Shown here one piece after another: positions 2,848 through 30,607 of a DNA stretch of 38,209 nt. The position numbers were made by a program, and so were the translations under genes. The notes under the pieces were generated by a model. The model was not told the DNA's origin and ran no database searches. It saw only the letters and a list, made by a program, of their open reading frames with translations. The first letter of the stretch is position 1. Every line of letters begins with the position of its first letter. The DNA is taken from contig CBDUUJ010000001.1 of assembly GCA_965370205.1 (NCBI GenBank), positions 1 through 38,209 on the forward strand, given 5' to 3'. This DNA comes from an uncultured bacterium (GTDB lineage: Bacteria > JAJVIF01 > JAPKYR01).

Positions 2848-2887
2848 TGGTAAAAAGACGCCCGATCGCTGGAAGCGACCGGCACAA

Positions 2888-5800
2888 TTAATACAAGTCA
2901 AATATATACAATCCCATAGTTTGGGAAGCTTCGTATAAATAGCCGTCAAACGCCAGGAGATCGCGTGGGTGGTGATAAAGAATATCACCATAAATATGAC
3001 CCAGGTTGGCAGGACTGTTCGGGGGCCAGACCCAGAACGATACCGGATCTGTTGTGTAACCTGCTGCATACCCGAACTGCCCTTCCACGGTGAGGAAGCC
3101 ATAGCCGCCCATGTCCGGTGGCGGGAGCAGTTCAGAGCCCAAATTAGCAGGCGCTGCCGGGTCAGTTAGATCGGCGATTTCAATTGAATCATATGTCAGG
3201 GCATACAGGTAATTACCGTGGATCTCCGATTCCATATAGCCCGGACTGCCGGGGGTGGAATAAGACCCGACATAAGCGGGATTGAGCGGATTGGTAATTG
3301 AATATATCTCTATGGCATCTCCCGAGCAAACATACATGTAATCCCCGTTGAAAGTGAAATCATAGACGCCATAAGTAAACGACATTGTCATTTCATAATG
3401 GGGTGAATATGGGTTGGAAATGTCGTAAATTTTAACCGGATGGCCTACCTGACTTATATAAACATAGATCGCGTTTTCATAAATGCCAAGCGCGTAGACA
3501 AAGTCAGCCTCAGTCTTAAAATACATAGGTGAGATATTAAGCGGATCCGAAGCGTCATGCAGTGCCCAGATTTTACCTGAATCTGTCGCCAGGACATCGC
3601 CATACAACTGCAGTTCGGAACCAGGATATGCAGGGAAATACTCAGCAGCAACATACGTGCTGGATGGGTCGGAAATGTCAAGTGTCTTGATCCCATCGAA
3701 ACCCGCTGTAATCAGCCAGTCATCCTTTTCAACAAATGAATATGCACTGTTTACCACCTTAAGACGAGAGAGAGATGAAGGTATTTGCGGGATACCGCAG
3801 TCGAAAATCTGGAAACCGGCTCTATAGGGAATGATATATGCAAGGTCATCCCGAACCGCTAGATCCCTCCCCTGGGAAATCATCGGTGTTGAGCTGATAT
3901 AAACCGGGTCGGCCGGGTTCGTAACTTCGCATATCGTCAGCCCGGATTCATCATTACCAATATACGCGTAAGGCCACTCAAGATCGATATACCATGCACT
4001 ATCAGGCACATCAACGGAACCGAATTCGAGAACACTGTTGGTCGCTGAATACAATATCTTCAGAAATCCTTCCCCTGTACTTATTACAGATGCTGCATAT
4101 ATGTAGTTACCTTCGATGGCAATATCCCTCGCCCAGCCGGCTGGGTAGGTATAAGAACCTTTCTGAGTGACCGAAGAGGGATTTTCCACGTCATACACGA
4201 TAATGTCATGCCATGTGCATTCTACAATCCTGGTATCCGGCCCCTCCGGATCGATTAACCCAAGACGCTGCGGACCATACGGAACATTGAATTCGCCGAC
4301 CTTGTCAGGATTCAGCGGGTCGGTCGCATAGTCATATATATATACTTCTGAGGTGGGATTCACACTGGTGCCCACATACAGATGGGTCGAGTTCATGGTT
4401 ATATCACCAAGATCCATCATGATGATCATAAGACCCTCATGGTTAACCGGAGAAGTAATATCAGTGAAATCAATCATGTTGATTTCTGTTTCATCGATAC
4501 CGAGTCCGTTTGTATAGTACAGATATGGATAATTGAAACAGAAAGCCTCGTTCATGTAAATTTTCTCGGTGTACACCTGCACCGGATTGGTTGGATCGCT
4601 TATGTCATACACCCAGAGGCCCATTCCAAAAAGAATCGCATAATCATCGTGCAGCCAGACTCTTTCCGGATTGACGTAAAGGTCCGACGGAGTGACATCC
4701 ACCGGGTTAGATGGAATTACATCTGTAAGCTCTCCCGTAAATTCAAGCAGATAGGGAGATGTCTGTGTATCATTCGATGTCAGCACGCGGATAAAATACT
4801 GCCCCGGCGTGAGAGCGAGATTTTGAAGTCCGATAGACGCTTCACCACCAGAAACATTCACTTCTTCAATCAGAGCATAGGAATCATCGTACAACCCGAG
4901 TTTCGTGGGTTCGGCATCGCACCAGAGACTGATACCACCTGATATGTCATAACCCGGATCGATTTCGAAAAAATAAAAATCACGGTAATCATCGGGAAGA
5001 CATACCTGATCGATAACCTGGTCACCAAATACAATCTCTACCGCCTCAAGCCAGTCATTGTTGGCATCCGCTGAACATTCGGGATCGGGGATATCGAGTA
5101 CGAGAACATTATATGCCGACAGAGAATCATCCGGAGCAGGCATCGCAGTCTGCTGGTATGTCGAGCCATCCGATGATCCCACCCGGCAGACAATGAGCGT
5201 TTCTCCCGCTTCCGACGGAACCGCTGTACCTGTCAAATCGACCGTGTAAACCGCTTTTTCGGCTGTCTGTTTATGCAGAATTCCGTCAGCGCCGCTCGGC
5301 ATCAGGTCCGGAGCCACGACCCGTACCGCGTCGATTTCCGGGACAATATTTCCCGCAGCCTGTCCCTGCCAGTCGAAAATACCGGCCTCAAGCCTTAAAA
5401 CCCCGCCGCCGATTCCCGACTCGCTGTCGTAATAGAGTGTATTTGCAGTCGTCTTCAAACCAATCCGGTACGCTTCCGGCTGATTCGCGTTCATTGGAAA
5501 ATCATCCGGAACCGCATCTGGAGGATTCGGTGACGGCGGATTCCACGCGCAGTCAATTGCGTATCCATACACGATCTGCGGACCGGGGTCCATCGGGAAT
5601 CTGATTTCATATCGACGGGTGTTGCTGCTTCCGGCAGTGAAAACCGCTCTCCCCTGGTCGCTGTCGAGCGGTTCATAGCATACAGCACCCAAACTGCTCG
5701 TCGCATAGAGAATATCCGCGAACAGCTTGTATGGATTCACTGTCGCTGTTAATGAACTTCCCGGCGCGGACGCTAGAATTCCATCTTCATATCCGAGCAT

Positions 5801-6313
5801 TCCGGGTGACGTAAACTCCGTCGGATTCCACCAACGCGTGTATCCATCGGCATTTTCAAGACGGGTCTCATCAGCGCCCGCATAAACAAGCGACCCGACC
5901 GCGTACGTGCCCGGTGTGACTAAAATTCCCTTCACATCGAATCCCGCCAACTGCGGTGATGTTCCGAACGGATGAGCAAGCGTGATATCGAAAACGAATA
6001 ATCCGTTCGCGGGATCATGTTCGGATGGCACCCCGGCTGCGGAAACTCCCATCGTAGAGTTCAGAATCCCCGTCAGATTGAAATGCCATTCCGCCGACCG
6101 TAATGGATGCACTTCAATCCCGTAACTCTCGGAATCCACCTCAATAAGATAATACCCGAGACATTGATGGGTCCGTTCGGATGAACCATCACGCGACATC
6201 AGGATGCCTGGGTCGGAAAGCGGATCGGGATCGGTCGGACCGCCCTGGCATCCGGCTAACGCAATACCTGCGAGGAGAAATATGCAAATGGCGGAAGATA
6301 AGAATGTACGCAT
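2888..6313 (-). CDS. Array paralogue 1 of 7: predicted surface lipoprotein (conserved N-module + PPC-like module + ~14 LVIVD-type propeller repeats), 1141 aa
   Basis: ORF 2888-6364 trimmed to the ATG at 6313. GGAGG lies 10 nt upstream and the product then begins MRTFLSSAICIFLLAGIALAG|C (lipobox LAGC), followed by a Pro/Asp-rich tether. PPC-like signature: ANNDW..A..I.....DDYRDFYFFEI...LGLYDD...GQYFIRV...YLLEF. Repeated blades follow (LWVYDISDPTNP, VYIYDYATDPLNP, IKTLDISDPSS, VKIYDISNPYSP, IEIYSITNPLNP, IEIADLTDPAAP ...) up to the C-terminal LYIFDLY. Confidence 0.9.
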   Translation of the reverse strand: MRTFLSSAICIFLLAGIALAGCQGGPTDPDPLSDPGILMSRDGSSERTHQCLGYYLIEVDSESYGIEVHPLRSAEWHFNLTGILNSTMGVSAAGVPSEHDPANGLFVFDITLAHPFGTSPQLAGFDVKGILVTPGTYAVGSLVYAGADETRLENADGYTRWWNPTEFTSPGMLGYEDGILASAPGSSLTATVNPYKLFADILYATSSLGAVCYEPLDSDQGRAVFTAGSSNTRRYEIRFPMDPGPQIVYGYAIDCAWNPPSPNPPDAVPDDFPMNANQPEAYRIGLKTTANTLYYDSESGIGGGVLRLEAGIFDWQGQAAGNIVPEIDAVRVVAPDLMPSGADGILHKQTAEKAVYTVDLTGTAVPSEAGETLIVCRVGSSDGSTYQQTAMPAPDDSLSAYNVLVLDIPDPECSADANNDWLEAVEIVFGDQVIDQVCLPDDYRDFYFFEIDPGYDISGGISLWCDAEPTKLGLYDDSYALIEEVNVSGGEASIGLQNLALTPGQYFIRVLTSNDTQTSPYLLEFTGELTDVIPSNPVDVTPSDLYVNPERVWLHDDYAILFGMGLWVYDISDPTNPVQVYTEKIYMNEAFCFNYPYLYYTNGLGIDETEINMIDFTDITSPVNHEGLMIIMMDLGDITMNSTHLYVGTSVNPTSEVYIYDYATDPLNPDKVGEFNVPYGPQRLGLIDPEGPDTRIVECTWHDIIVYDVENPSSVTQKGSYTYPAGWARDIAIEGNYIYAASVISTGEGFLKILYSATNSVLEFGSVDVPDSAWYIDLEWPYAYIGNDESGLTICEVTNPADPVYISSTPMISQGRDLAVRDDLAYIIPYRAGFQIFDCGIPQIPSSLSRLKVVNSAYSFVEKDDWLITAGFDGIKTLDISDPSSTYVAAEYFPAYPGSELQLYGDVLATDSGKIWALHDASDPLNISPMYFKTEADFVYALGIYENAIYVYISQVGHPVKIYDISNPYSPHYEMTMSFTYGVYDFTFNGDYMYVCSGDAIEIYSITNPLNPAYVGSYSTPGSPGYMESEIHGNYLYALTYDSIEIADLTDPAAPANLGSELLPPPDMGGYGFLTVEGQFGYAAGYTTDPVSFWVWPPNSPANLGHIYGDILYHHPRDLLAFDGYLYEASQTMGLYIFDLY
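5075..6172 (-). repeat. Conserved ~1.1-kb 5' module of the paralogue family, copy 1 of 7 (dispersed direct repeat)
   Basis: Encodes HQCLGYY...LDIPDPEC. It aligns essentially codon for codon with 9599-10693, 13082-14176, 16577-17671, 20079-21173, 23577-24668 and 27022-28116. The lower boundary is the invariant Cys codon, located by hand in every copy. Confidence 0.9.
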
Positions 6314-6344
6314 GACAAACACACCTCCGGATCTGGTTAATGTA

Positions 6345-6353
6345 ATTATAACA
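6345..6353 (-). promoter_or_regulatory. Extended -10 promoter element (TGtTATAAT) for paralogue 1
   Basis: The minus strand reads ACTGTTATAATTACATTAACCAGATCCGGAGGTGTGTTTGTCATG. It has a perfect TGnTATAAT 31 nt before the ATG and sits downstream of a terminator at 6405-6430. No good -35 is present (GTCAAT). The cassette is homologous to those upstream of paralogues 7, 5 and 3. Confidence 0.45.
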
Positions 6354-6404
6354 GTAAAACGCAAATTATTGACAGCGTCTGAGTTGAGATGGAGAAAGAA
6401 ACTG

Positions 6405-6430
6405 AAAAACCCCGACCATATAAGCCGGGG
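6405..6430 (-). terminator. Rho-independent terminator after the tandem-PPC gene
   Basis: The minus strand reads CCCCGGC-TTATATG-GTCGGGG followed by TTTTT. This is a 7-bp GC-rich stem with one G-U pair, 36 nt downstream of the stop at 6466. Confidence 0.65.
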
Positions 6431-6465
6431 CGTTGTTTTACTACATCGTCGTTACTTACCGCTTA

Positions 6466-7209
6466 TCATGGCTCAATTTCAATCGTATACTCGCCTTCGC
6501 CTTCATAATAATAAACGTAAACATGGCACAAACCGGGCACACGACAGGTGATGCTCTCTTTGGAGCCCCAGTCGTACGCGCCTTCAATCAGTTCCTCGTC
6601 ACTGTAGATCTCGAAATCTATCTCGAAATCTTCGTCATCGAAATAGATGGTGAACGTCGGATTTGTACCTTCCTGGCCATCGAGCACAAACCAATCCTCG
6701 TCACCCACGCAGATATAACCGTTAATCTCCAGACCATCGATCAGGTCGGCAAGGTCGATTTCGTCGTTCGGCTCGATCTCATCTTCACCGGCGCATTCGT
6801 CGGATCCCGGGATGATCTCGATTTCATAATCGCCTTCACCATCCCACCACCAGACATGGACATAGCATACGCTGGGAACCTGACATGTGATCTCTTCTTC
6901 CGTTCCCCAGTCCAGGGCCTCGCCTACCTGTTCATCATCGCTGTAAACTGCGAAATCGACTTCCACTTCCTCGTCATCGAAGTAGATGATGAAAGTCGGG
7001 TGGAAACCCTCCTGTCCCGCAAGGACAAACCAGTCATCGCCGTCTTCCTCATCCATATGTCCCCGGATAACGAATTCATCGATGCTGTCAGCGAGGCTCC
7101 TGCTGTCATTGGACTCGACTTCATCGCGTCCCTCTCCCGCAATCGCGGGAATCACGGTTAGAAGAACAAGCGCCAGAATAATGGATAGTGCTGAAAATAA
7201 TTTGTTCAT
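6466..7209 (-). CDS. Secreted, highly acidic protein composed of two tandem PPC (pre-peptidase C-terminal type) domains, 247 aa
   Basis: GGAGGA lies 9 nt upstream of the ATG. The signal peptide is MNKLFSALSIILALVLLTVIPAIAG. Two ~105-aa halves are clearly homologous: E-x-N-D...LAD.ID...I.G......DEDWFVL.GQEG..PTF.IYFDDE....DF.(I/V)YSD......A.DWG..E.ITC.VP..C.V.V......GEY.IEI. The N-D...D-x-D-W-F...Y...G-x-Y-x-I-x-I pattern is the PPC-domain hallmark. Confidence 0.85.
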   Translation of the reverse strand: MNKLFSALSIILALVLLTVIPAIAGEGRDEVESNDSRSLADSIDEFVIRGHMDEEDGDDWFVLAGQEGFHPTFIIYFDDEEVEVDFAVYSDDEQVGEALDWGTEEEITCQVPSVCYVHVWWWDGEGDYEIEIIPGSDECAGEDEIEPNDEIDLADLIDGLEINGYICVGDEDWFVLDGQEGTNPTFTIYFDDEDFEIDFEIYSDEELIEGAYDWGSKESITCRVPGLCHVYVYYYEGEGEYTIEIEP

Positions 7210-7248
7210 GGATTTTGCATCCTCCAGTTAGTTTATTGTATTTAATGG

Positions 7249-7254
7249 AATATA
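7249..7254 (-). promoter_or_regulatory. Possible -10 element (TATATT) for the tandem-PPC gene
   Basis: The minus strand reads GTGGATTATATTCCATTAAATACAATAAACTAACTGGAGGATGCAAAATCCATG. It resembles the paralogue promoter cassette (TGTTATAATTACATTAAC) with small indels. No convincing -35 is present. Confidence 0.25.
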
Positions 7255-7390
7255 ATCCACGTTTTAGTACGTTCTTTTGACCTTTAATCAAATTTTAATC
7301 GGTCATAACGGGAACAATATTTCCAGATAACTCATCTCCCGTATGTTCCAGCATCTCCCGGATGCCCGTGCTGCAAGTTGAGTAAACCGG

Positions 7391-10300
7391 TTAATAAAGC
7401 TGGAATATATGAATCCCCTTATAATATGGAACCATTTCGTAAAGATAGCTGTTATCGATTACCATGCTGCTGATTGTATATTCCCCGGGATGAACCTGAC
7501 CGAGCGCTGACGGGCTGTCCGACGGCCATACATTGCAGAAATACGGCGGCATCGGTTTCGAGCCGTGAATATACGCGAACTGCCCGACCATGGTGATACC
7601 GTCAAGCGGATCAAACGCGCCGACATCGATTGTGCTCTCGAAAGCAGGGATTGACGGGTCGCTCAGGTTCGCGATCTCAAGATCCGTATCCGTAATCAGG
7701 TAGATATAATCGCCCTGCACCGATGAATCCTCAAGGTCTGAAGCCATTGGATACGCGCCGATATAGGACGGATTCAGTGGATCGGCGACCGAATATATTT
7801 CCAGGCCGGGATCTGTATCGAGATACATACAAGCCCAATAGAAGGAAAAACCACGCGCAATGTCAGGCGCAACGAACATATCCGTGGTTGTTACAAAGGG
7901 CAGAGAACCGATGTCATATGTAACCACTTTTTTTGAGTCCAGCGCGACATACAGCGCATCATTATGCATGGCAATGGCCATTATGTCCTCGGGTAATGGA
8001 ACGGCTATTATAAGCGACAGATCGGTCGGATCGCTCGCATCGAAAAGCATCCATTGTTTCATGGACGCAACTGCCAGGATGTCATTCTGCAGGTCCAGAT
8101 AGCAGGGCGGGACCGACAGGAAAAACTCTCCAACAACATGTGCGTTTGATGGATCGGAGATATCCACAGTCTTGATTGCAGAATATCCAAACGCCATATC
8201 AGCAACAATAAGATAATCGCCGGAAACTACCGCTGACCAGGGATTATTGACCACCTTTAGACGGGCAATGGGATCGGGTAAAGAGGGATTCTGTATGTCG
8301 AACACCTGAAGCCCCGCGTTATATGGAGCAATACAAAGAATATGCTCATTAATCGATAGATGCCCCCCCAGGGAAATAAGCGGTACCGAACATTTGTGAA
8401 TCGGGGTTGAAGGAATGGAGACATCGCAGACGGTAAGCCCTGCGGAAGTATCACCGATAAACACATACGGCCAGTCAAGAGCGGTAAAGCCGCCTTCACC
8501 GGGTATATCCACCGATCCGAATTCAAAAAAACCGGGCATTGACGGATCGAGGTGCATTACATATAACCATCCATCATTGCCGCTCTTGGCATAAGCAAGA
8601 TAAATCAGATTCCCCCGGGTCGACATGCCGCGCGGTGAGCCTGCTGGAAACGGATAGGGAACTACGTCTGTGACTGCCGACGGGTCATCAACCGAATACG
8701 CATGAATCATGGCGCCATCCGCATCGCCTACTACCAGATACTTTCCAAAGCCGTCTATCTCTGTCAGCGCCATATAATATGTGTAATAGGTGATTGGGAT
8801 GCTGCCGACCTCGACAGGATCAAGCGGATCGGTTATGTAGTCATATATTTTGATTTCATAGGCGGGAGCGGAACCTGTATGGAGATACAGGTGTGTGGAA
8901 TCAAGGCATATTCCTTTTATTCCGTCAGGATACGTGATTAATCCCTCGTGCTGTACCGGGGCAAGCGGGTCAGTGAAATCAACCAGGCCTAACTGCCGTT
9001 CATCAATTCCCGAGATCGTTGAATAGTAACAATATGGATAGTGGAAATTTCCTACCTCTGCCAGGTAGTAATCCTCATTGGCAACCTGAATGGGATTCGC
9101 GGGATCGGTCAGATCATACACCCAGCACTCATAGCCGCAGAGGAAAGCATACTGATCATGAAGCCAGACATATCGCGGATTGACATAGAGCGTCTCCGGT
9201 GTCACATCGACCGGGTCAATGGGTACCACATCCACAAGCTCCCCGTCCAGTTCAAGAAGATACGGCACCACGTTATCGCAACATGGACTTCCCACTCTTA
9301 TGTAATATTGTCCGGGCATCAGCGCCAGTTCATCAAATGATAAAACCGCGACCCCATCCGCCACATAAACATCGGCTATGTGGGATTCCGACCCGTCATA
9401 CAGTCTCAGAGTCGGTTGCGTTGGCCACGGAGGATCGGCATTGGCGTTCAGCCTGATCTCGCCAGTCGCTTCATACCCGACGGGAATGTAAAACGAATAA
9501 AAATCATACCCATCATCCGGATTGCACACCTGATCGATTGCCTCACCGCCGAAATCGATCGGAACCGCCTCGCCGAAATCGTTATTGGCATCTGCCGCAC
9601 AATCCGGATCGGGGATATCGAGCGCAAGAACCTGGTATGCCGACAGGGAATCGGTTGGGGCAGGAGCTCCAGTCTGCTGGTATGTCGAACCATCCGATGA
9701 CGCAACCCGGCAGATAACGAGCGTTTCCCCAGCTTCCGATGGTTCCGCCACTCCGGTCAGGTCAGCCATGTAGACCGCTTTCTCCGCAGTCTTGTACTGT
9801 AAAATCCCATCCACTCCACTCGGCATAAGGTCCGGAGCGATAATCCGTACCGCGTCGATTTCCGGCGGTATATTTCCAGCCGCCTGACCCTGCCAGTCGA
9901 AAACACCGATCTCAAGCCTCAGAACCCCACCGCCGACTCCAAATTCATCATCATAATAGAGAGTGTTCGCAACCGTTTTAATCCCTATCCGATAGGCTTC
10001 AGGCTGATTAGCGTTCATCGGGAAATCATCGGGGACTTCCCCTGGCGGATTCGGGCTTGGCGGATTCCACGCGCAGTCAATTGCATATCCGTAAACAACC
10101 AGCGGACCCGGGTCCATCGGGAACCTGATCTCATACCGACGGGTATTGCTGCTTCCGGCAGTGAAAACCGCTCTCCCCTGATCGCTGTCCAATGGTTCAT
10201 AGCAGACCGACCCAAGATTGCTCGTTGGATATAGAATATCCGCGAACAGCTTGTATGGATTTATTGTCGCCGTCAGAGCACTGGCAGGAGCGGACGCGAG

Positions 10301-10831
10301 AATTCCATCCTCGTATCCAAGCATCCCCGGTGACGTGAACTCGGTCGGATTCCACCAGCGCGTGTATCCATCCGCATTTTCGAGACGGGTTTCATCCGCA
10401 CCCGCGTAAACGAGCGACCCGACCGCGTACGTTCCCGGCGTGATTAAAATTCCCTTCACGTCGAATCCCGCAAGCTGCGGCGATGTATCGAACGGATGCG
10501 CAAGAGTAATATCAAAAACAAACAATCCGTTCGCTGGATCATGCTCGGATGGCACCCCGGCCGCCGAGACTCCCATCGTAGAGTTAAGAACCCCGGTCAG
10601 ATTAAAATGCCATTCAGTTGATCGCAAAGGAATAATCTCAACCGAATAGCTCTCAGTATCAATCTCAACCATGTGGAACCCAAGACATTGATGCGAGGAA
10701 GAACTCGCTGATTCACCGAGCACTGGATTTTCCGTTGATGGCGCCGGGCTGGTGGGATTGTCACTACATCCCACAAGGATAAATAGAATCAAAATAAACA
10801 ACCAGGCGAATACAAGGCTTGATCGGAACAT
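7391..10831 (-). CDS. Array paralogue 2 of 7: predicted surface lipoprotein, same architecture, 1146 aa
   Basis: ORF 7391-10864 trimmed to the ATG at 10831 (GGGAGGG 8 nt upstream). The product begins MFRSSLVFAWLFILILFILVG|C (lipobox LVGC). It has the conserved N-module (SHQCLGF...LDIPDPDC), a PPC-like module (ANNDFGEA..I......DDGYDFYSFYI...LRLYDG...GQYYIRV...YLLEL), LVIVD-type blades and C-terminal IHIFQLY. Confidence 0.9.
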   Translation of the reverse strand: MFRSSLVFAWLFILILFILVGCSDNPTSPAPSTENPVLGESASSSSHQCLGFHMVEIDTESYSVEIIPLRSTEWHFNLTGVLNSTMGVSAAGVPSEHDPANGLFVFDITLAHPFDTSPQLAGFDVKGILITPGTYAVGSLVYAGADETRLENADGYTRWWNPTEFTSPGMLGYEDGILASAPASALTATINPYKLFADILYPTSNLGSVCYEPLDSDQGRAVFTAGSSNTRRYEIRFPMDPGPLVVYGYAIDCAWNPPSPNPPGEVPDDFPMNANQPEAYRIGIKTVANTLYYDDEFGVGGGVLRLEIGVFDWQGQAAGNIPPEIDAVRIIAPDLMPSGVDGILQYKTAEKAVYMADLTGVAEPSEAGETLVICRVASSDGSTYQQTGAPAPTDSLSAYQVLALDIPDPDCAADANNDFGEAVPIDFGGEAIDQVCNPDDGYDFYSFYIPVGYEATGEIRLNANADPPWPTQPTLRLYDGSESHIADVYVADGVAVLSFDELALMPGQYYIRVGSPCCDNVVPYLLELDGELVDVVPIDPVDVTPETLYVNPRYVWLHDQYAFLCGYECWVYDLTDPANPIQVANEDYYLAEVGNFHYPYCYYSTISGIDERQLGLVDFTDPLAPVQHEGLITYPDGIKGICLDSTHLYLHTGSAPAYEIKIYDYITDPLDPVEVGSIPITYYTYYMALTEIDGFGKYLVVGDADGAMIHAYSVDDPSAVTDVVPYPFPAGSPRGMSTRGNLIYLAYAKSGNDGWLYVMHLDPSMPGFFEFGSVDIPGEGGFTALDWPYVFIGDTSAGLTVCDVSIPSTPIHKCSVPLISLGGHLSINEHILCIAPYNAGLQVFDIQNPSLPDPIARLKVVNNPWSAVVSGDYLIVADMAFGYSAIKTVDISDPSNAHVVGEFFLSVPPCYLDLQNDILAVASMKQWMLFDASDPTDLSLIIAVPLPEDIMAIAMHNDALYVALDSKKVVTYDIGSLPFVTTTDMFVAPDIARGFSFYWACMYLDTDPGLEIYSVADPLNPSYIGAYPMASDLEDSSVQGDYIYLITDTDLEIANLSDPSIPAFESTIDVGAFDPLDGITMVGQFAYIHGSKPMPPYFCNVWPSDSPSALGQVHPGEYTISSMVIDNSYLYEMVPYYKGIHIFQLY
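9599..10693 (-). repeat. Conserved 5' module, copy 2 of 7
   Basis: Same alignment as copy 1. The boundary Cys codon (TGT) is at 9599-9601. Confidence 0.9.
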
Positions 10832-10882
10832 GTCGGAACCCTCCCATGTTGGAATACAATACAAAGTACAACAATTACGAAA

Positions 10883-13800
10883 TCAGTACAGATCGAATAT
10901 TCGTACTCCCTTGTAATAAAGCGTCTCATACAGGTAGCCATTATCAACAGCTAATTGAATCACTTCCCATGCATCTTCAACAGGATATATATCCCCGAAC
11001 ACGGACGGGCTGTCAGGCGGCCAGAGATTAACCGCGGTCACGGGCTGCCAGTGATCGATATCCGCATATGCATACTGCCCTTCAATCGCCAGAACATCCG
11101 CGGGCGGGTTGTACGGCAATACCACATCGGCTGTGTACACAGGCAGACCGCCCGCTGAAATATCCGTAACCTCCAGCGTGTCCGTCGTGAGGATATATAA
11201 AGTATTACCCTGAATTACCAGGTCTATCGGATCATAACCCGGCGTGTAAGAACCGACATATGCCGGACTGTTCGGACTGGAAATATCAACATAATGAACA
11301 TCCGTTGTCGAATTCCCGTACATCCAGTCGCCCCTGAAAACGGGATTCCCGAGCTTGTCGGGAAGGCTTACCGGAGTTTTTGCCACTACAACAGGCCAGG
11401 AGGTAGTATCGTAAATATCTATAGTGCCATCAAGGAGGGAAATATATATCGCCTCATCGGTTACGCCGAGTCCAATAATACTTGTCGAATACGATTCCAG
11501 GGTAACCAGGTCTGGATTTTCAGGATCAGCCACATTGAAAATCCATACCGTATCACTGTCAGTTCCGGCGACAACGATGATTTCGCCTCGTCCGGCAATT
11601 GGAAACAGGACATCGTCGAGCAGGTATTCACCCTCGACATATGCATGTCCCGGGTCGGCAACATTCAATACTTTCAGGGCAGTATATGACAGGTATCCTT
11701 CGGTGAAATACGCATGGTCCCCAAGAATCGTCACACCGAACGGCTGGTTCAGAACCATAGGCCTGAATATTTCATTGGGAATTTCAGGATCGGTAAGGTC
11801 GTACCACACATAACCTGCGCCCTCGGGGATATTTATTAAAACATCGCCGTCAGCGCAGACATAGTGAGAATCCGACACCGTGGGAAGATATCCTTTCCAT
11901 GACGGCAATGACGGATTGGAGATATCCATTACATGGAGACCGAGCGACCCTCCGCCGATATACGCGTAATCGCCTGCCGTATCCACATACCTTGCGCGGG
12001 ATGAAGTGTAGGTGCTGCTCTCATTGACCAGGCCCGGTCCGGATGAATAGCTTTTAATGTTGAGCCAGCCGTTATCGAATGTATCAATTGTGGTTGTGTA
12101 GAAATAATCATCACCGATTGAAAGATCCTGGTGAGTAGAATCAATCAGTAGTGAAGCGGCCACGGTGGAAACGCTCATGGGGTCTTCGACATCGAAAAGT
12201 CCCATGTATGTATTGGTCAGCATTACAAGAACCGTCTCAGGACCCTCCGGATCGAGCAATCCAAGCCTGATTACATTCTCATCGACGACGAATTCATTCA
12301 CATATTGCGGATTGTACGGGTCTGTGGCGATATCATAAATATAAATTATGCCACCACCGACGCCATCGTTGGCCGCCAAGAACAGGTATTCGGAATTCAA
12401 CGTGATGTAATGCGTTTCGTATGGAATTTCGAGAACATCTTCATAATGCACCGGATTCGCCGGATCGGTGTAATCGATGACATCAATGCCTGCCGGAATG
12501 GCGCCAATGCTCTCGCAGTAATACAGGTAGGGATAATTAAACGCAGGCCAGGTGGTTGTGAAATCTTTGGTCCTGGATAAAAGCTGCGGATTTTCAGGAT
12601 AGCTGACGTCATAGACCCAGAATCCCGTATATCCGCCTAAGTACAGGTTGTTGCCGCGTTTTTCCAGCCATATCGGATCGAGTATAAGTCCGTCCGGAGT
12701 CACATCAACCGGGCTGGTTGGTTTGATATCAACATTCTCCCCTTCAATTTCAAGGAAATAGGTCACAGCTTGGTCGAAACTCGAAGTAAACACATTTATG
12801 TAATACTTCCCAACGTACAGGTCCAGATCGGTAAGATTGACTGTCGCAAGCCCGTCAACACAGGACGCGCCATCAAGAACCAACCCGTTCACATCATGGA
12901 CTATGACACCGCACGAATCGGCATCGCAGAAGAACCGTAATTCTCCCTCTGCCTTCCAACCCGACCAGATATCGAGGAAATACCAGTCCTCGTCATCGGT
13001 TCCGCCACACAGATAACCGCTCACATCATCATTGACCCAGATTTCCTCAGCGTCAAGATGAGAATTATTCGAATCGGCTTCGCATTCAGGATCGATAACG
13101 TCAACAGTTAATATTTTAAACGCACTGAGGTCCGCATCCGGGGCCGGACCAAATCCCTGATCGTATGTCGATCCATCGCTCGACCCAACTCTCATGATTA
13201 CAGGAAATTCCCCTGCGACCAAAGGTTCCGCGATTCCCGTCAGGTCGGCTTCGTACATAGCCTTTGTCGCACTATTATGGATTAAATCAGCGGTAACTCC
13301 TCCAGTCCAGAGATCGGGTGAGAAAAATCTCACAATGTCCACTTCATCAGCAGTATTCCCGGCGTACATCCCCTGCCAGTCGCGGATATCTGCCCAGAAG
13401 CGAAGAACACCTCCGGATTTCCCCGACTCACTGTCATGGAAAAGCGTATTGGCGACAGGTTCAAAGCTCACAAAAAACGCTTCCGGCTGATTCGCTTCCA
13501 TTGGAAAATCATCCGGAATTTCACCCGGCGGATTCGGGACAGGCACCGCCCATGACGCATCGATTGCGTAACCGTATACAACGAGCGGACCGGGGTCCAT
13601 CGGAAATCGGATGTAGTAACGTCGTACGTTTTCGCTCCCCGCTGTGAACACCCCCCGACCCTGATCGTCATCCAGAGGCGTTAACGAAAGCCATGATGTT
13701 CCTTGAGTTAAATTCAAGCAATCCGCGAATTGCTTGTAAGGATTAATCGTCGCCGTAAGGGATGACATCGGACCCAGGGCAAGATTACCCTGGGTGTATC

Positions 13801-14314: not shown

Positions 14315-14344
14315 GATAAAACCTCCAGGTCGAAAATTTCTCAA

Positions 14345-14353
14345 ATTATTCCA
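14345..14353 (-). promoter_or_regulatory. Degenerate extended -10 cassette (TGgAATAAT) upstream of paralogue 3
   Basis: The minus strand reads TGGAATAATTTGAGAAATTTTCGACCTGGAGGTTTTATCATG. The -10-like hexamer lies exactly 30 nt from the ATG, the same spacing as in paralogues 5 and 7. The hexamer is 5/6 and there is no good -35. Confidence 0.25.
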
Positions 14354-14386
14354 TTCAGAGCAGCTTGCCCCTTTTGTCCACCCGGA

Positions 14387-17818: not shown

Positions 17819-17891
17819 GGGATGACACTCCTTGATTCGGGATAAAGACCCTTATGTTCAGACATGCCTCTTTAGCTGGCAATGGTCGAAA

Positions 17892-21317: not shown

Positions 21318-21347
21318 GAGAAAACCTCCACAATTTAATGTGAATTA

Positions 21348-21375
21348 ATTATACCATCTAACCGGAATTTGTCAG
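21348..21375 (-). promoter_or_regulatory. Sigma-70-type promoter for paralogue 5 (CTGACA - 16 nt - TGgTATAAT)
   Basis: The minus strand reads CTGACAAATTCCGGTTAGATGGTATAATTAATTCACATTAAATTGTGGAGGTTTTCTCATG. The -35 is 5/6 and overlaps the TGA stop of paralogue 6. The spacer is 16 nt, the extended -10 is perfect, and the -10 lies 30 nt from the ATG. Confidence 0.5.
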
Positions 21376-24812: not shown

Positions 24813-24843
24813 GAGGTTATCCTCCGGTTTTCGATCTGATAAA

Positions 24844-27800
24844 TCAGTACAAGTCCCAGATACGAACAATAAAATCAGGATCAAGCTCGTAATAATAGCC
24901 GTCGTGAATCAGTACCTGGTTAGGCTTCACTGCGTATTCCGATCCGTAAAGAGGCCCGATAACGGTCGGGTCATCCAGGGGCCAGACGCGCATGACGGCA
25001 GGTGGGGTTGTCCAATAAGGCTGCAGAATGGCGAACTGGTTCTCAACCGCGATATATTGGCCGTGGGGAGCATCCGGATGCGGCTCGGATGCCACGAACG
25101 TGGGTGTCTGCGGATTTGAAATATCAGCAATCTCCAGCGTGTCCTCAGTCGCCATGTAAAGGTAATCACCGTCAATCGTCATATTCGTAACTGAAGCCAA
25201 TGCGGTATATGTGTCAATATAATTTGGATCGAGAGGGTTATTGATTGAATAGACAAGGATATCTCCTCCGGACCTTGCGTACATGATGTTATCCTTGAAG
25301 AGAAATTGTTTTGCCAGTTCTGTTACAGCAATTGATTTAACATATGACGGGAGTGACCAGTTCGATATATCCCACACGCCAAAAGTCCAATCTAAGTGCC
25401 CGATATAAAGCGCGGTATCTGTCAGGCCAATGCTTAAAACCCACTTCGCGGTGTCATATACATCCATTCCCACAAGCAGGGACGGGTCGGAGGAATCTAC
25501 CGTCATAAAATATTGCCCGTTAACAGCGGCTATCAATTTGTCGCCATTGACTTCAATGCGGCTTGGCCAATAGCCGAGGATCAACTCATCGGCGATAAAT
25601 GCATTTGCAGGGTCCGAGATATCCACACTCTTAATTGCGTAATAAGGATCAGCGGATTCAGTCGCGAACATGTAGTCACCGTCGATAGCGAGTTCCGATG
25701 GGTCCCCCAGGCCGATTGTGCGTCCGAAATCGTTGAGTCCGGGAAAACCGATCATTCTCAAACCGGCTTCGCCAAGGGCATACCAGGCATACTGACCCTC
25801 AATGTCCATGTCGAGCATTTTGGCATCGTCGAGTGTGTAATTCGCGACATGGACCGGGTCGTTCGGATTACTGATATCCATCTTCATGATATGCAGATCG
25901 TTTGCCACGAACCCGAAATCCCCCTCGACATCAACAAGATTGGGCGAGTAGACGAGAGAATCACTGTCTTTGGAGACCAAACCGTTTGCATCTATGTATG
26001 TCGAAACGAAGTAATTGTTGGCACCCGAATCGTACATTACATGAAAACAGTAATTATCGATTGTTGTGATGTCTCGTATTGAAGTGCCGGACAGATATGA
26101 AATAATCCCAGGGGCAGGAATGGCTGATTTATCGGTCACATTATAAAAATTTACCATTAAATAGTTCTCTGAGACGACAAGCCAGTAATCGGGGCCGTAT
26201 GCATTATATAGCAGCTCCATTTCCTGCGGTGGCTTGTAGTGCGGGATAGTTGCCACTAATACCGGGGCGGTGGGATCGGTGGCAATATCATATATATCGA
26301 TATTCGAGGTTTCCAGACCGAGGTAGAGGTAATCGGGTTCCGCCTGGAGACAATTTACAGCCCCACCTGCCAGCATAATATCCTTATGTAGAACAGGATT
26401 GGAGGGGTCGGTCATGTCGATCATACTGATATTTAGAGTACTAAACGAATCCACCAAATAAATATAGGGATGAACAAGGGCTGGTTTCTGGCCGATATTT
26501 ATTTCCACATGGCTCAGGAGTGGAGGATCGAACTTGTCTGCGCCATAGTCATACACCCAGAGTCCATTCTTCCCTGATGCAAATGCCAACTGACCGTACG
26601 CTGTTACCCAGGTTGGATTAAAGCAGAGACCGTCAGGGGTGACATTCACGGGGTCCAACGGGGTTACATCCTCCAGCTCGATATTTGGCTCAATCATATA
26701 AATAAACGCATGACCTGATGTTTGAGTCAGCACGCGAAGATAAAAGTGTCCCAGCATGATACCCAGCGCCCCGAAATCAATCGATGCGACGCCGCCACTT
26801 ACCGCGACCTCCGAGATCAGGGCTTCGGAATCATCGTAAAGACCGAAATCCGTCGGCTCGGCATCGCAGTAAAGGGTCATTTCACCCGCAACCAGATTAC
26901 CCCACGGGATATCGAACTCGAAGAAATCCTTGTAATCATCCGGCGCGCACATCTGATCAATCGTCGGTTCATTGAGATCAAGATCAAACGCCTCGTTGAA
27001 CTGATTGTTTGTATCCGCAGTACATTCTGGATCGGGGATATCGAGAGCGATCACATTATAGGCCGACAGGGAATCATCAGGAGCAGGCATCGCAGTTTGC
27101 TTGTATGTCGATCCGTCCGATGACGCCACCCGGCAGACAACGAGCGTTCCTCCCGCCTCGGTTGGAACGGCTACGCCGGTCAGATCGACCGTGTAAACCG
27201 CTTTTTCGGGCGTCTGTTCATGCAGAATTCCATCGACGCCGCTCGACATCAGGTCAGGAGCAACGAACCGTACAGTGCTTAATTCCGGGGGTATATTTCC
27301 AGCAGCCTGACCCTGCCAGTCGAAAATGCCGGCCTCAAGCCTCAGAACACCTCCGCCGATTCCCGACTCACTGTCGTAGTAGAGAGTGTTCGCAGTTGTT
27401 TTTATCCCTATGCGGTACGCCTCTGGCTGATTTGCGTTCATCGGAAAATCATCCGGAACTTCAGTGGGAGGATTTGGCGAAGGCGGATTCCAGGAACAAT
27501 CTATTGCATATCCATACACGATCTGCGGACCTGGATCCATCGGAAATCGAATCTCGTATCGACGGGTGTTATTGCTTCCCGCTGTGAAAACGCCTCGTCC
27601 CTGATCGCTGTCGAGCGGTTCATAACAGACAGCTCCGAGACTGCTTATTGGGTAGAGGATGTCCGCGAAATATTTGTATGGATTCACAGTCGCAGTCAGC
27701 GAACTTCCCGGCGCGGACGCGAGAATCCCATCCTCATATCCGAGCATTCCGGGTGATGTAAATTCGGTCGGATTCCACCACCTTGTATATCCATCGGCGT

Positions 27801-28260
27801 TTTCAAGACGGGTCTCATCAGCGCCCGAAAAAATAAGCGATCCGACCGCATACGTTCCCGGCGTGACAAGAATTCCCTTTACATCGAATCCGGCAAGCTG
27901 CGGCGATGTTTCGAACGGATGCGAGAGGGTGATATCGAAAACGAATAGTCCGTTCGCAGGATCATGTTCCGACGGAACCCCTGCTGCGGAAACTCCCATC
28001 GTCGTGTTCAGTATCCCGGTCAGATTAAAATGCCATTCTGATGACCTGAGAGGAGTCGCATCAACTTCCATCGCGTCGGTATTGATAATCAGCGTGTAGT
28101 ATCCAAAACACTGATGCGATTGCCCGGCATCACCGGATGTCACAGCGGAAGAGTTAGAATCTGCGCTTGAATCGGGAACGGTTGGAGCATCCTGACATCC
28201 CGGAAGAACCAGCAGGATTATCAAAACCACGAATGCTGATAAATAAATTGCTCGGGGCAT
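24844..28260 (-). CDS. Array paralogue 7 of 7 (promoter-proximal): predicted surface lipoprotein, same architecture, 1138 aa
   Basis: The ATG at 28260 has AAGGAG 8 nt upstream. The product begins MPRAIYLSAFVVLIILLVLPG|C (LPGC). It has the conserved N-module (SHQCFGYY...LDIPDPEC), a PPC-like module (TNNQFNEA......DDYKDFFEFDI...FGLYDD...GHFYLRV), blades and C-terminal VRIWDLY. Confidence 0.9.
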   Translation of the reverse strand: MPRAIYLSAFVVLIILLVLPGCQDAPTVPDSSADSNSSAVTSGDAGQSHQCFGYYTLIINTDAMEVDATPLRSSEWHFNLTGILNTTMGVSAAGVPSEHDPANGLFVFDITLSHPFETSPQLAGFDVKGILVTPGTYAVGSLIFSGADETRLENADGYTRWWNPTEFTSPGMLGYEDGILASAPGSSLTATVNPYKYFADILYPISSLGAVCYEPLDSDQGRGVFTAGSNNTRRYEIRFPMDPGPQIVYGYAIDCSWNPPSPNPPTEVPDDFPMNANQPEAYRIGIKTTANTLYYDSESGIGGGVLRLEAGIFDWQGQAAGNIPPELSTVRFVAPDLMSSGVDGILHEQTPEKAVYTVDLTGVAVPTEAGGTLVVCRVASSDGSTYKQTAMPAPDDSLSAYNVIALDIPDPECTADTNNQFNEAFDLDLNEPTIDQMCAPDDYKDFFEFDIPWGNLVAGEMTLYCDAEPTDFGLYDDSEALISEVAVSGGVASIDFGALGIMLGHFYLRVLTQTSGHAFIYMIEPNIELEDVTPLDPVNVTPDGLCFNPTWVTAYGQLAFASGKNGLWVYDYGADKFDPPLLSHVEINIGQKPALVHPYIYLVDSFSTLNISMIDMTDPSNPVLHKDIMLAGGAVNCLQAEPDYLYLGLETSNIDIYDIATDPTAPVLVATIPHYKPPQEMELLYNAYGPDYWLVVSENYLMVNFYNVTDKSAIPAPGIISYLSGTSIRDITTIDNYCFHVMYDSGANNYFVSTYIDANGLVSKDSDSLVYSPNLVDVEGDFGFVANDLHIMKMDISNPNDPVHVANYTLDDAKMLDMDIEGQYAWYALGEAGLRMIGFPGLNDFGRTIGLGDPSELAIDGDYMFATESADPYYAIKSVDISDPANAFIADELILGYWPSRIEVNGDKLIAAVNGQYFMTVDSSDPSLLVGMDVYDTAKWVLSIGLTDTALYIGHLDWTFGVWDISNWSLPSYVKSIAVTELAKQFLFKDNIMYARSGGDILVYSINNPLDPNYIDTYTALASVTNMTIDGDYLYMATEDTLEIADISNPQTPTFVASEPHPDAPHGQYIAVENQFAILQPYWTTPPAVMRVWPLDDPTVIGPLYGSEYAVKPNQVLIHDGYYYELDPDFIVRIWDLY
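27022..28116 (-). repeat. Conserved 5' module, copy 7 of 7
   Basis: Same alignment as copy 1. The boundary Cys codon is at 27022-27024. Confidence 0.9.
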
Positions 28261-28290: not shown

Positions 28291-28320
28291 ATTATACCAC
28301 TGTATTTTCCAAAAAAAAAA
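28291..28320 (-). promoter_or_regulatory. Extended -10 promoter (TGgTATAAT) for paralogue 7, with a T10 tract occupying the -35 position
   Basis: The minus strand reads TTTTTTTTTTGGAAAATACAGTGGTATAATTAATTTAACCTGGATTAAGGAGAGTTCCTTATG. The extended -10 is perfect and lies 30 nt from the ATG. Counting a 17-nt spacer places the -35 hexamer inside the T10 run (28311-28320). Confidence 0.45.
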
Positions 28321-28343: not shown

Positions 28344-28347
28344 GGCT

Positions 28348-30510: not shown

Positions 30511-30607
30511 TCAATATTTTTCCCTCCCCTTGCTCCTCGGACATCTTCCCGCAGGTTCTCCCATATCTCCTCATCCTGCACCGAGATATCAATTTACATG
30601 ATTTTTC

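What the first reader, a model, noticed from the sequence alone, without database searches (positions are those of the whole stretch)
2888..28260. Seven intact tandem paralogues of a ~1,140-aa lipoprotein occupy two thirds of the window
Seven same-strand ORFs of 1138-1146 aa (after start trimming) lie head to tail with 31-73 nt spacers. One 1.08-kb interruption (6314-7390), between copies 2 and 1, carries a small PPC gene. Each copy has its own GGAGG/AGGAG Shine-Dalgarno 7-10 nt before the ATG. Each has a lipobox signal peptide (LAGC, LVGC, SLGC, LTGC, LIGC, AVGC, LPGC) followed by a Pro/Ser/Asp-rich tether. Each has the same tripartite body: a conserved ~365-aa N-module, a PPC-like module, and ~14 LVIVD-type repeats. 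None has a frameshift or internal stop, so all seven appear to be maintained by selection. I cannot place the N-module in any named family. A 25-kb single-family array next to the ribosomal protein cluster is a large genomic investment. My inference is that it is a diversified cell-surface recognition or adhesion repertoire (substrate, partner-cell or phage-related). That reading is hypothesis only.
Basis: partly seen in the sequence, partly recalled or inferred. Interest (0 to 1): 0.85.

Follow-up and report, generated by a model that had tools for sequence, protein, structure and literature searches.

The report
Tandem array of modular lipoprotein paralogues
Seven intact neighbouring genes in an uncultured bacterium encode large lipid-anchored proteins that share one conserved, previously undescribed front part and carry seven very different beta-propeller rear parts, and this family has dozens of copies per genome in that lineage.

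Summary
Seven minus-strand genes of 1138-1146 aa lie head to tail. Each has a Shine-Dalgarno site, a lipobox and no internal stop. They are not an assembly artefact: the most similar 300-nt stretches are at most 87% identical.

Each protein has four parts:
- a lipoprotein signal and tether;
- a 365-aa all-beta N-module;
- a PPC/collagenase-CBD-like domain;
- about 14 LVIVD blades.

The N-module folds with high confidence (pLDDT 93.8). It matches no Pfam or NCBIfam family, no PDB sequence and no known fold.

It defines a large undescribed superfamily, with 2575 clusters at 50% identity. Nearly all members are lipoproteins. Elsewhere the N-module is fused to BNR, Kelch, PQQ, beta-helix or metalloprotease modules, or stands alone. 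One related MAG holds at least 40 copies, and arrays of six or more exist there.

The new result is that the modules have different histories:
- Each propeller half is closest to a gene in another genome, and its synonymous sites are saturated.
- The N-modules of five copies form a within-array clade and still share synonymous-site identity.

This indicates old gene conversion confined to the N-module, on top of strong purifying selection.

The best reading is a constant-base, variable-head repertoire of envelope lipoproteins with distinct, long-retained specificities. Ligands and cellular location are untested. No phage or defence link was found.

The parts
24844..28260 (-). copy c7, 1138 aa, lipobox LPGC; N-module 27025-28119
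   Evidence: Pfam LVIVD 43.3 bits
21372..24812 (-). copy c6, 1146 aa, lipobox AVGC; N-module 23571-24668; identical to P0029
17892..21317 (-). copy c5, 1141 aa, lipobox LIGC; N-module 20082-21176
14387..17818 (-). copy c4, 1143 aa, lipobox LTGC. Modules: signal and tether 17678-17818, N-module 16583-17677, PPC/CBD-like 16214-16582, LVIVD blades 14390-16213
10883..14314 (-). copy c3, 1143 aa, lipobox SLGC; N-module 13085-14179. It is the most divergent copy, and its N-module was not homogenised with the others
7391..10831 (-). copy c2, 1146 aa, lipobox LVGC; N-module 9602-10696
2888..6313 (-). copy c1, 1141 aa, lipobox LAGC; N-module 5078-6172
6466..7209 (-). 247-aa acidic secreted protein with two ~105-aa repeats. 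It lies inside the array, probably co-transcribed with c3-c2. PPC identity is not confirmed
   Evidence: no homologue in 73 related loci
28291..28299 (-). extended -10 box TGGTATAAT, 30 nt before the ATG of c7
21348..21375 (-). promoter-like site CTGACA-16-TATAAT with TG (11 of 12 matches), 30 nt before the ATG of c5
14345..14353 (-). near-consensus extended -10 box TGGAATAAT, 30 nt before the ATG of c3
6345..6353 (-). extended -10 box TGTTATAAT, 31 nt before the ATG of c1
6409..6431 (-). terminator-like hairpin with T-run, after the 247-aa gene
2862..2882 (-). terminator-like hairpin with T-run, after c1 (end of the array)
28387..30477 (+). divergent neighbour: membrane-anchored heparinase II/III-like protein, 696 aa. 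It is adjacent to family genes in three other MAGs as well
   Evidence: Pfam Hepar_II_III_C 27.1 bits, DUF4962; synteny in L002, L032, L045

Best explanation
**What it is.** The array is a local cluster of a very large, lineage-specific family of envelope lipoproteins. The family is built on a 'constant base, variable head' plan.

**Domain order in each gene product**
- A Sec/lipobox precursor. Lipidation at the Cys is inferred.
- A short Pro-rich tether with a conserved C-x-x-N-P-x-x-P motif.
- A 365-aa two-subdomain all-beta N-module with an invariant set of polar and aromatic residues.
- A PPC/collagenase-CBD-like beta-sandwich.
- About 14 LVIVD blades. These are probably two seven-bladed propellers (inferred).

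**Division of labour.** The N-module is the shared functional core of the superfamily. In other members it carries quite different heads, or none. I infer that it provides a common activity: a conserved ligand or metal site, or docking to a common envelope partner. The propeller heads would provide different binding specificities.

**History (shown).**
- The heads are ancient paralogues, each with a closer relative in another genome.
- The N-modules of c1, c2, c4, c5 and c7 were homogenised with one another by old segmental gene conversion.
- All N-modules are under strong purifying selection.

**Expression (inferred).** The array is probably transcribed from several internal extended -10 promoters, as units c7-c6, c5-c4, c3-c2-(247 aa) and c1.

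**Net reading.** It is a stable repertoire of differentiated envelope binding proteins, most plausibly for capture of polymers or particles, or for adhesion. It is not a switching or antigenic-variation system.
For: **Anatomy.** Seven intact genes with SD sites and lipoboxes. LVIVD above the Pfam cut-off, with 10-13 repeats detected per copy. The middle module is homologous to ColG/ColH collagen-binding domains at E = 4.8e-6.

**N-module.**
- The AlphaFold model has pLDDT 93.8 and pTM 0.89, is all-beta, and has two subdomains.
- D110, G111, W116, F179, W211, F226 and E234 are invariant across 131 sequences. H31, N33, H68, D80, N108, R176, R187 and N231 are at least 90% conserved, including in stand-alone forms.

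**Superfamily.**
- 2575 clusters at E <= 1e-3 among 1.84 billion representatives, about 80 of them with the same ~1145-aa architecture.
- Nearly all members carry a lipobox.
- The N-module is fused to BNR, Kelch+PKD, PQQ, beta-helix or PPC+reprolysin modules, or stands alone at ~385 aa.

**Expansion.** At least 40 N-module genes in MAG JAUWTM01, with tandem arrays of 3 to at least 6 genes.

**Selection.** The N-module has dN/dS about 0.1 and dS of 0.6-2.5. The C-terminal half has pS of about 0.77, which is saturated.

**Discordant history of the modules.**
- N-module best hits are inside the window for 7 of 7 copies (66-90% identity, against 64-70% outside).
- C-half best hits are outside the window for 7 of 7 copies (41-52% identity, against 30-44% inside).
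- In NJ trees, c1, c2, c4, c5 and c7 form a clade in 85 of 100 bootstraps for the N-module and 0 of 100 for the C-half.
- Fourfold-site identity is 0.41-0.72 inside alignment columns ~60-420 and about 0.3 outside. Chance is 0.26.
- Across nine genomes, the nearest neighbour is in the same genome for 26 of 57 N-modules and 9 of 57 C-halves (Fisher p = 0.001).

**Promoters.** All three exact TGnTATAAT sites in the 38-kb window lie 30-31 nt upstream of c1, c5 and c7.
Against: - Location (surface, periplasmic face or inner membrane) and lipidation are not shown.
- It is not known whether the organism has an outer membrane.
- No ligand is known for LVIVD propellers or for the N-module.
- No conserved partner gene, such as a transporter or secretion component, recurs near family genes in 73 related loci. 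That check was by clustering neighbours against each other, not by domain annotation.
- The invariant His/Asp/Glu/Arg/Asn set fits an enzyme active site as well as a binding or docking site.
- The tree evidence is NJ only. Sampling of paralogues from the other genomes is incomplete.
- The promoter assignment is by consensus only.
- No structure was predicted for the propeller half.
Confidence: 0.6

Rival explanations
1. The N-module is an enzyme, for example a beta-sandwich polysaccharide lyase or hydrolase, or a peptidase. On this reading the proteins are anchored degradative enzymes, and the PPC/CBD-like domain and propellers serve as substrate-binding modules.
For: - Invariant or near-invariant His, Asp, Glu, Arg, Asn and Tyr residues persist down to about 25% identity. 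They are also kept in stand-alone ~385-aa forms, so the module has an autonomous function.
- PPC/CBD domains are typical appendages of secreted proteases and collagenases.
- A heparinase II/III-like gene is a conserved divergent neighbour in four genomes.
Against: - There is no sequence or fold similarity to any known enzyme. Foldseek TM is at most 0.23, and only Ig-like pieces match.
- In other members the module is fused to domains that are themselves catalytic types: sialidase-like BNR, beta-helix and reprolysin. This fits an anchoring or adaptor role better.
- The heparinase-like neighbour is found at only this one syntenic locus among 73 loci.
Confidence: 0.25
2. The array arose by recent whole-gene tandem duplication. 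The heads then diverged very fast under positive selection, as in phage-receptor, antigenic or decoy variation. On this view the N-module simply looks younger because it is constrained.
For: - The heads are only 26-44% identical, while the N-modules are 61-90% identical.
- The tandem, same-strand layout would fit local duplication.
Against: - Synonymous fourfold sites are at chance level in the heads but not in the N-module, with sharp boundaries. Constraint on the protein cannot preserve synonymous sites.
- Every head has a closer relative in another MAG than within the array.
- There are no inverted repeats, silent cassettes or near-identical tracts.
- There are no phage, plasmid, IMG/VR or defence-system relatives.
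Confidence: 0.05
3. The proteins are periplasm-facing or cell-wall-associated structural lipoproteins, i.e. envelope scaffold or coat components, and not ligand-binding surface receptors.
For: - Beta-propeller lipoproteins such as BamB act inside the envelope. Some family members carry PQQ/BamB-type propellers.
- LVIVD repeats were first described in cell-surface-layer proteins of Methanosarcina (PMC2447325).
- No transporter partner was found.
Against: - Dozens of differentiated paralogues per genome with many head types, including protease and sialidase-like heads, are hard to reconcile with a purely structural role.
- Conserved paired cysteines in the PPC-like module indicate an extracytoplasmic location. 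They do not distinguish the two faces of the envelope.
Confidence: 0.1
4. The copy number is inflated by misassembly of a repeat.
For: The window is a short-read-type MAG contig. Reads could not be inspected.
Against: - Copies are at most about 87% identical over any 300 nt and about 46% identical in the C-terminal half.
- All seven have unique spacers, signal peptides and heads.
- Independent assemblies of related MAGs carry arrays of 3 to at least 6 genes.
Confidence: 0.01

Closest known systems
LVIVD-repeat cell-surface proteins (Pfam PF08309; Adindla et al. 2004, PMC2447325)
   Same: The C-terminal ~590 aa consist of 42-46-aa LVIVD repeats that pass Pfam's cut-off. These are predicted four-stranded blades of a beta-propeller. 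[quoted passage not shown]
   Different: The known family is defined by the repeat alone and has no assigned function. Here the repeats are only one of several alternative heads on a separate conserved N-module. NCBIfam gives no match at all for the two copies tested.
PPC / collagen-binding domain of clostridial collagenases ColG and ColH (PF04151; PDB 5iku, 1nqd, 4hpk)
   Same: A profile of the middle module matches these CBDs over about 97 residues at E = 4.8e-6. The E/D-x-N-N...D-x-D-[YF]-[YF]...G-x-Y-Y-[IL]-x-V pattern is shared.
   Different: No copy reaches Pfam's gathering score. The module carries two nearly invariant cysteines. It sits inside a lipoprotein, not at the C-terminus of a secreted protease. 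Collagen or Ca2+ binding was not tested.
Paralogous lipoprotein or surface-protein families with a conserved N-terminal part and variable C-terminal part (e.g. mycobacterial PE/PPE, Mycoplasma Vlp/Vsa, Borrelia paralogous lipoprotein families); comparison from general knowledge
   Same: It is a multigene family, often in tandem. A constant N-terminal module is kept similar within a genome, with gene conversion implicated, while the C-terminal parts are variable.
   Different: There is no sequence or fold relationship. The heads here are large folded propellers with orthologue-like relatives in other genomes. There are no repeats prone to slippage, no invertible elements and no silent cassettes, so nothing indicates phase or antigenic variation.
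Bacteroidota surface glycan-binding lipoproteins (SusE/F-like SGBPs) of polysaccharide utilisation loci; comparison from general knowledge
   Same: They are lipid-anchored and built from tandem beta-sandwich domains plus binding modules. They are present in many differentiated copies per genome. Here a polysaccharide-lyase-like gene is next to the array.
   Different: No SusC/SusD-type transporter pair is in the window, and no recurrent transporter neighbour appears in related loci. There is no sequence similarity, and the lineage is unrelated.

Membership tests
Bacterial lipoprotein precursors (Lgt/LspA substrates) | N-terminal basic n-region, hydrophobic h-region and lipobox [LVI][ASTVIP][GAS]C within about the first 35 residues | tested here: met
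   All seven copies have M-x-R/K..., a 12-16-residue hydrophobic stretch, and L-A-G-C, L-V-G-C, S-L-G-C, L-T-G-C, L-I-G-C, A-V-G-C or L-P-G-C. Most of the 255 family proteins screened with a simple lipobox pattern also match it.
Bacterial lipoprotein precursors (Lgt/LspA substrates) | Actual diacylglycerol modification and signal peptidase II cleavage | not testable with these tools
   Needs mass spectrometry or globomycin sensitivity.
LVIVD repeat family (PF08309) | Score above the Pfam gathering cut-off (20.2 bits) | tested here: met
   23.1, 43.3 and 39.1 bits in c4, c7 and c3.
LVIVD repeat family (PF08309) | Tandem ~42-aa repeats forming a propeller | tested here: inconclusive
   An iterated HMM finds 10-13 repeats per copy at 43-46-aa spacing over aa ~550-1140, which implies about 14. 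The propeller fold itself was not modelled here. The literature models LVIVD on a WD40-type propeller (PMC8078820).
PPC / pre-peptidase C-terminal domain (PF04151) | Score above the Pfam gathering cut-off (25.9 bits) | tested here: not met
   The best scores are 17.3 bits (c2) and 15.0 bits (c4). The other five copies give no hit.
PPC / pre-peptidase C-terminal domain (PF04151) | Profile-level homology to solved PPC/CBD domains | tested here: met
   A 27-sequence profile of the middle module matches collagenase CBDs: 5iku at E = 4.8e-6, and 4hpk, 1nqj and 1nqd at about 5e-4.
PPC domain, claimed for the small 247-aa gene | Significant match to the PPC profile or to the array's middle module | tested here: not met
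   No Pfam PPC hit at E <= 5. The best PDB sequence hit is 1nqd at E = 0.6. hhalign against the middle-module profile gives probability 1.4%.
Any named family for the N-module | Match in Pfam-A, NCBIfam, PDB sequences or PDB/BFVD folds | tested here: not met
   - No N-terminal hit in 3 window copies at E <= 1, nor in 10 diverse homologues.
- NCBIfam: none.
- Profile against PDB: none at E <= 10.
- Foldseek TM at most 0.23 with rmsd above 12 A for whole-module alignments.
Phase- or antigen-variable surface lipoprotein systems | Invertible promoters, silent cassettes, slippage tracts or near-identical recombining copies | tested here: not met
   - No inverted repeats of 30 nt or more in 2800-28400.
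- Copies are at most 87% identical.
- Every copy has its own SD site and start codon.
- The heads have closer relatives in other genomes.
Anti-phage defence systems / phage proteins | Match to PADLOC or PHROG families, or presence on phage or viral contigs | tested here: not met
   - PADLOC: none.
- PHROGs: one unknown-function family matches LVIVD blades only.
- No N-module relatives in phage records, plasmids or IMG/VR.
Sus-like polysaccharide utilisation loci | Adjacent SusC/SusD-type (TonB-dependent transporter plus lipoprotein) gene pair | tested here: not met
   - The window neighbours are carB, a heparinase-like gene and ribosomal genes.
- No recurrent neighbour family other than LVIVD fragments and an aconitase-like gene appears in 146 neighbour ORFs.
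- The neighbours were not domain-annotated.

The most novel reading that the evidence does not exclude
The N-module is a new protein fold that acts as the universal docking or sorting unit of a lineage-specific surface-display system. Dozens of lipoproteins per cell, with propeller, beta-helix, sialidase-like or protease heads, would plug through the same module into one shared envelope partner. Gene conversion would keep the module matched to that partner within each genome. In function this would be a counterpart of cohesin-dockerin or PE/PPE-ESX logic, in a deep uncultured bacterial lineage.
Probability: 0.25. Interest if true: 0.75.

Novelty: new variant of a known kind. Interest (0 to 1): 0.55.

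Why it matters
The N-module appears to be an uncatalogued domain.
- It has about 2,600 clusters at 50% identity.
- Its predicted structure is confident.
- It has no Pfam or NCBIfam entry and no analogue in the PDB.

It organises what may be the largest gene family of a deep-branching uncultured lineage found in cold-seep, lake-sediment and soil MAGs. Relatives are labelled only 'bacterium' or 'Planctomycetota bacterium'. RpoA is at most 46% identical to that of any named organism among the 120 best hits listed.

Because the family is so large, defining the N-module would annotate a sizeable share of the predicted envelope proteins of these organisms.

The array is also a clean natural example of module-restricted concerted evolution: a homogenised constant part beside ancient, independently evolving heads. 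That is useful for studying how multigene surface repertoires are maintained.

The functional claim is hypothesis only. The ligands and the cellular location of the proteins are unknown.

Tried and rejected
1. **First N-module structure prediction.** With a 25-sequence alignment the model was poor (pLDDT 56). It was redone with 131 sequences.
2. **First word-indexed homologue search.** It returned only 27 hits and suggested a very rare family. The exhaustive profile search corrected this to 2575 clusters.
3. **Exact-product look-ups of the window's own genes.** None was found on record, so the source sample and organism name were not recovered.
4. **PPC identity of the 247-aa protein.** Pfam, PDB sequence search, BLASTP and hhalign were all non-significant.
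5. **Structured RNAs and tRNAs in the window.** None was found.
6. **Remnant family gene in the 720-nt gap after rpsI.** None was found.
7. **Conserved neighbour genes.** Only the heparinase-like gene recurs, and only at the syntenic locus.
8. **Phage, plasmid, viral and defence links.** None was found.
9. **C-terminal G-[LVI]-R-I-[FYW]-[DE]-L-Y as an outer-membrane beta-signal.** Rejected. The hydrophobic positions are out of register. The motif is simply the LVIVD strand of the last blade.
10. **Taxonomy.** RpoA homologues gave no named close relative. A literature search on the MAG identifiers gave only catalogue papers.


Full report
**1. Observation**

The window holds seven long minus-strand ORFs. 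After trimming to the ATG that follows a Shine-Dalgarno site they are:
- 2888-6313 (c1)
- 7391-10831 (c2)
- 10883-14314 (c3)
- 14387-17818 (c4)
- 17892-21317 (c5)
- 21372-24812 (c6)
- 24844-28260 (c7)

They encode 1138-1146 aa, each with only its terminal stop. The spacers are 31-73 nt. The 1077-nt interruption between c2 and c1 holds a 247-aa gene at 6466-7209. GGAGG or AGGAG lies 7-10 nt before each ATG, and each product starts with a lipoprotein signal ending in LAGC, LVGC, SLGC, LTGC, LIGC, AVGC or LPGC. The genes occupy 63% of the window. The description is therefore accurate.

An assembly artefact is very unlikely:
- The most similar 300-nt stretches of different copies are at most about 87% identical.
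- The C-terminal halves are about 46% identical at the DNA level.
- Independent MAG assemblies of relatives carry arrays of 3 to at least 6 such genes.

**2. Anatomy**

The seven-way alignment and the per-module statistics show four parts:
- Signal and tether (aa 1-47): 29% mean identity.
- N-module (aa ~48-412): 77% mean identity.
- Middle module (aa ~413-535): 40% mean identity.
- C-terminal half: 33% mean identity.

*C-terminal half.* Pfam recognises only LVIVD repeats, above its cut-off in the three copies tested. An iterated repeat HMM finds 10-13 repeats per copy between aa ~550 and 1140, and the spacing implies about 14 blades. The conserved C-terminus G-[LVI]-R-I-[FYW]-[DE]-L-Y is the characteristic LVIVD strand of the last blade.

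*Middle module.* It is PPC-like only at profile level. A 27-sequence profile matches the collagen-binding domains of clostridial collagenases at E = 4.8e-6. Pfam PPC stays sub-threshold.

*The 247-aa gene.* It encodes a secreted, very acidic two-repeat protein. Its PPC identity could not be confirmed, and it has no homologue in 73 related loci.

**3. The N-module**

It has no match in Pfam, in NCBIfam or among PDB sequences.

With a 131-sequence alignment, AlphaFold2 gives a confident model (pLDDT 93.8, pTM 0.89). It is all-beta. The first subdomain (res. 1-235) has long loops, and the second (res. 236-365) is Ig-like. Foldseek against the PDB and BFVD finds only partial Ig-sandwich similarities, with TM at most 0.23.

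Conservation across the 131 sequences, down to about 25% identity:
- Invariant: D110, G111, W116, F179, W211, F226, E234.
- At least 90% conserved: R26, H31, N33, H68, D80, N108, R176, R187, N231 and several Tyr/Trp/Pro residues.
- Nearly all of these lie in subdomain 1.

**4. The family**

The first, word-indexed search found only 27 relatives. An exhaustive profile search of 1.84 billion cluster representatives found 2575 at E <= 1e-3 and 1383 at E <= 1e-30. About 80 of these have the same ~1145-aa architecture and the same C-terminal motif. Nearly all members have a lipobox. In the LVIVD class the lipobox is followed by a conserved C-x-x-N-P-x-x-P motif.

Elsewhere the same N-module is fused to other C-terminal modules:
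- BNR/sialidase-like propellers
- Kelch propellers with PKD domains
- PQQ/BamB-type propellers
- right-handed beta-helices
- PPC plus a reprolysin-like metalloprotease
- no head at all (stand-alone ~385-aa lipoproteins)

In species-representative genomes, 427 tblastn-confirmed matches were found. The best 80 fall in 11 MAGs from cold seeps, lake sediment and soil, deposited as 'Planctomycetota bacterium' or 'bacterium'. One MAG, JAUWTM01, has at least 40 N-module genes in the fetched loci alone, of which at least 16 are of the LVIVD type.

The window's RpoA has relatives at 70-81% identity and at 51-60%. Identity then drops to 46% or less for the named organisms among the 120 best hits listed. 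The host is therefore a deep, uncultured lineage.

No relatives were found in phage records, plasmids or IMG/VR, and there is no PADLOC hit.

**5. Evolution of the array: the main new result**

*Synonymous divergence.* The paralogues are old. Synonymous sites in the middle and C-terminal parts are saturated (pS 0.75-0.77). In the N-module dS is 0.6-2.5 and dN/dS is about 0.1.

*Best hits.* The two halves tell different histories:
- Every C-half has its best match in another MAG, at 41-52% identity against 30-44% within the array.
- Every N-module has its best match within the array, at 76-90% against 67-70% outside. For c3 the figures are 66% and 64%.

*Trees.* In NJ trees of 57 family members, the N-modules of c1, c2, c4, c5 and c7 form a clade in 85 of 100 bootstraps. 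Their C-halves never do (0 of 100), and each pairs with a gene from a different MAG. c3 pairs with the same foreign gene in both trees.

*Fourfold-degenerate sites.* Within the five-copy group, identity at these sites is 0.41-0.72 between alignment columns ~60 and ~420. It falls to about 0.3 on both sides, where chance is 0.26. Protein-level constraint cannot preserve synonymous sites. The N-modules of these five copies therefore share a more recent ancestor than their heads. That is old segmental gene conversion, or recombination, confined to the N-module.

*Other genomes.* The same tendency appears across nine genomes. The nearest neighbour is in the same genome for 26 of 57 N-modules and for 9 of 57 C-halves (p = 0.001).

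**6. Expression signals**

All three exact TGnTATAAT sites in the whole window, on either strand, lie 30-31 nt upstream of the start codons of c1, c5 and c7. About 1 site is expected by chance anywhere in the window. c3 has TGGAATAAT at the same spacing, and c5 also has a -35 box, giving 11 of 12 matches. c2, c4 and c6 lack such sites. Terminator-like hairpins follow the 247-aa gene and c1. This suggests four transcription units: c7-c6, c5-c4, c3-c2-(247 aa) and c1. That is inference from consensus only.

**7. Context**

The left flank is carB. The right flank is a membrane-anchored heparinase II/III-like gene on the opposite strand, followed by the rpsI-to-secY ribosomal cluster.

The heparinase-like gene is divergently adjacent to family genes in three other MAGs (L002, L032, L045). 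One of these loci (L045) shows two LVIVD-type copies. The locus is therefore syntenic, and its copy number appears to vary.

In a relative with 79% RpoA identity, rpsI is followed by a different N-module gene. No other neighbour family recurs.

**8. Interpretation**

*Shown:*
- Seven intact, selected, ancient paralogues of a modular lipoprotein.
- A new, confidently folded N-module that defines a very large family with interchangeable heads.
- Concerted evolution restricted to the N-module.

*Inferred:*
- The proteins are lipid-anchored in the envelope.
- The N-module supplies a common function, either a ligand or metal site or docking to a shared partner.
- The propeller heads supply distinct binding specificities.

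Long-term retention of each head lineage across genomes argues for differentiated functions, such as capture of different polymers or surfaces. It argues against antigenic or phage-driven variation.

The main rival is that the N-module is catalytic.

**9. Novelty**

The general logic, a multigene surface-lipoprotein family with a constant N-terminal part and variable C-terminal part, is known from other bacteria. LVIVD and PPC domains are also known. The following appear undescribed in the libraries and papers searched:
- the N-module itself;
- the breadth of its fusions;
- its scale in this lineage;
- the module-restricted conversion.

Noticed in passing
window 6345-6353, 14345-14353, 21348-21356, 28291-28299 (minus strand): Extended -10 boxes (TGnTATAAT; TGGAATAAT for c3) sit exactly 30-31 nt before the ATG of every second gene (c1, c3, c5, c7). 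These include all three exact TGnTATAAT sites in the 38-kb window. The pattern suggests pairwise transcription units inside the array.
   Followed up: partly
window 6466-7209 (minus strand): A 247-aa, very acidic secreted protein. It has a signal-peptidase-I-type signal, not a lipobox, and two ~105-aa repeats that each begin E-x-x-(S/P)-N-D. It has no homologue in any of 73 related loci and no significant family match.
   Followed up: partly
window 28387-30477 (plus strand); L002 3800-6088, L032 3408-5447, L045 6527-8539: A membrane-anchored heparinase II/III-like protein (Hepar_II_III_C, DUF4962). It is divergently adjacent to LVIVD-type family genes in the window and in three other MAGs. The syntenic locus in L045 shows two family copies; the window has seven.
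   Followed up: partly
window 28311-28368 (minus strand): The divergent intergenic region between the heparinase-like gene and c7 holds two elements. One is a palindrome, TGATGACG-N3-CGTCATCA. The other is a terminator-like hairpin (28343-28325) with a T10 run just upstream of the c7 promoter. The function of both is unknown.
   Followed up: no
window 30478-31198: A 720-nt stretch between the convergent ends of the heparinase-like gene and rpsI. It has no convincing ORF, no tRNA, no Rfam match and no remnant of a family gene. One strand is pyrimidine-rich.
   Followed up: partly
L074 13417-16344 and 19666-21083: In a relative with 79% RpoA identity, the ribosomal cluster (rpsI end) is followed directly by a 975-aa N-module gene with a non-LVIVD head. 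Another N-module gene lies 6 kb further on. Family genes therefore recur near this cluster, but with different members.
   Followed up: partly
L010/L027 (contig JAUWTM010000056, 23.6 kb): Six consecutive same-strand family ORFs. Two are shortened (855 and 880 aa) and may be broken copies, and the last is cut by the contig end. Arrays as long as the window's therefore exist elsewhere, and some contain possible pseudogenes.
   Followed up: no
The word-indexed protein search returned 27 relatives and missed the window's own proteins, which are in the collection. The exhaustive profile search returned 2575 clusters. Rarity estimates from the first tool alone would have been misleading.
   Followed up: yes
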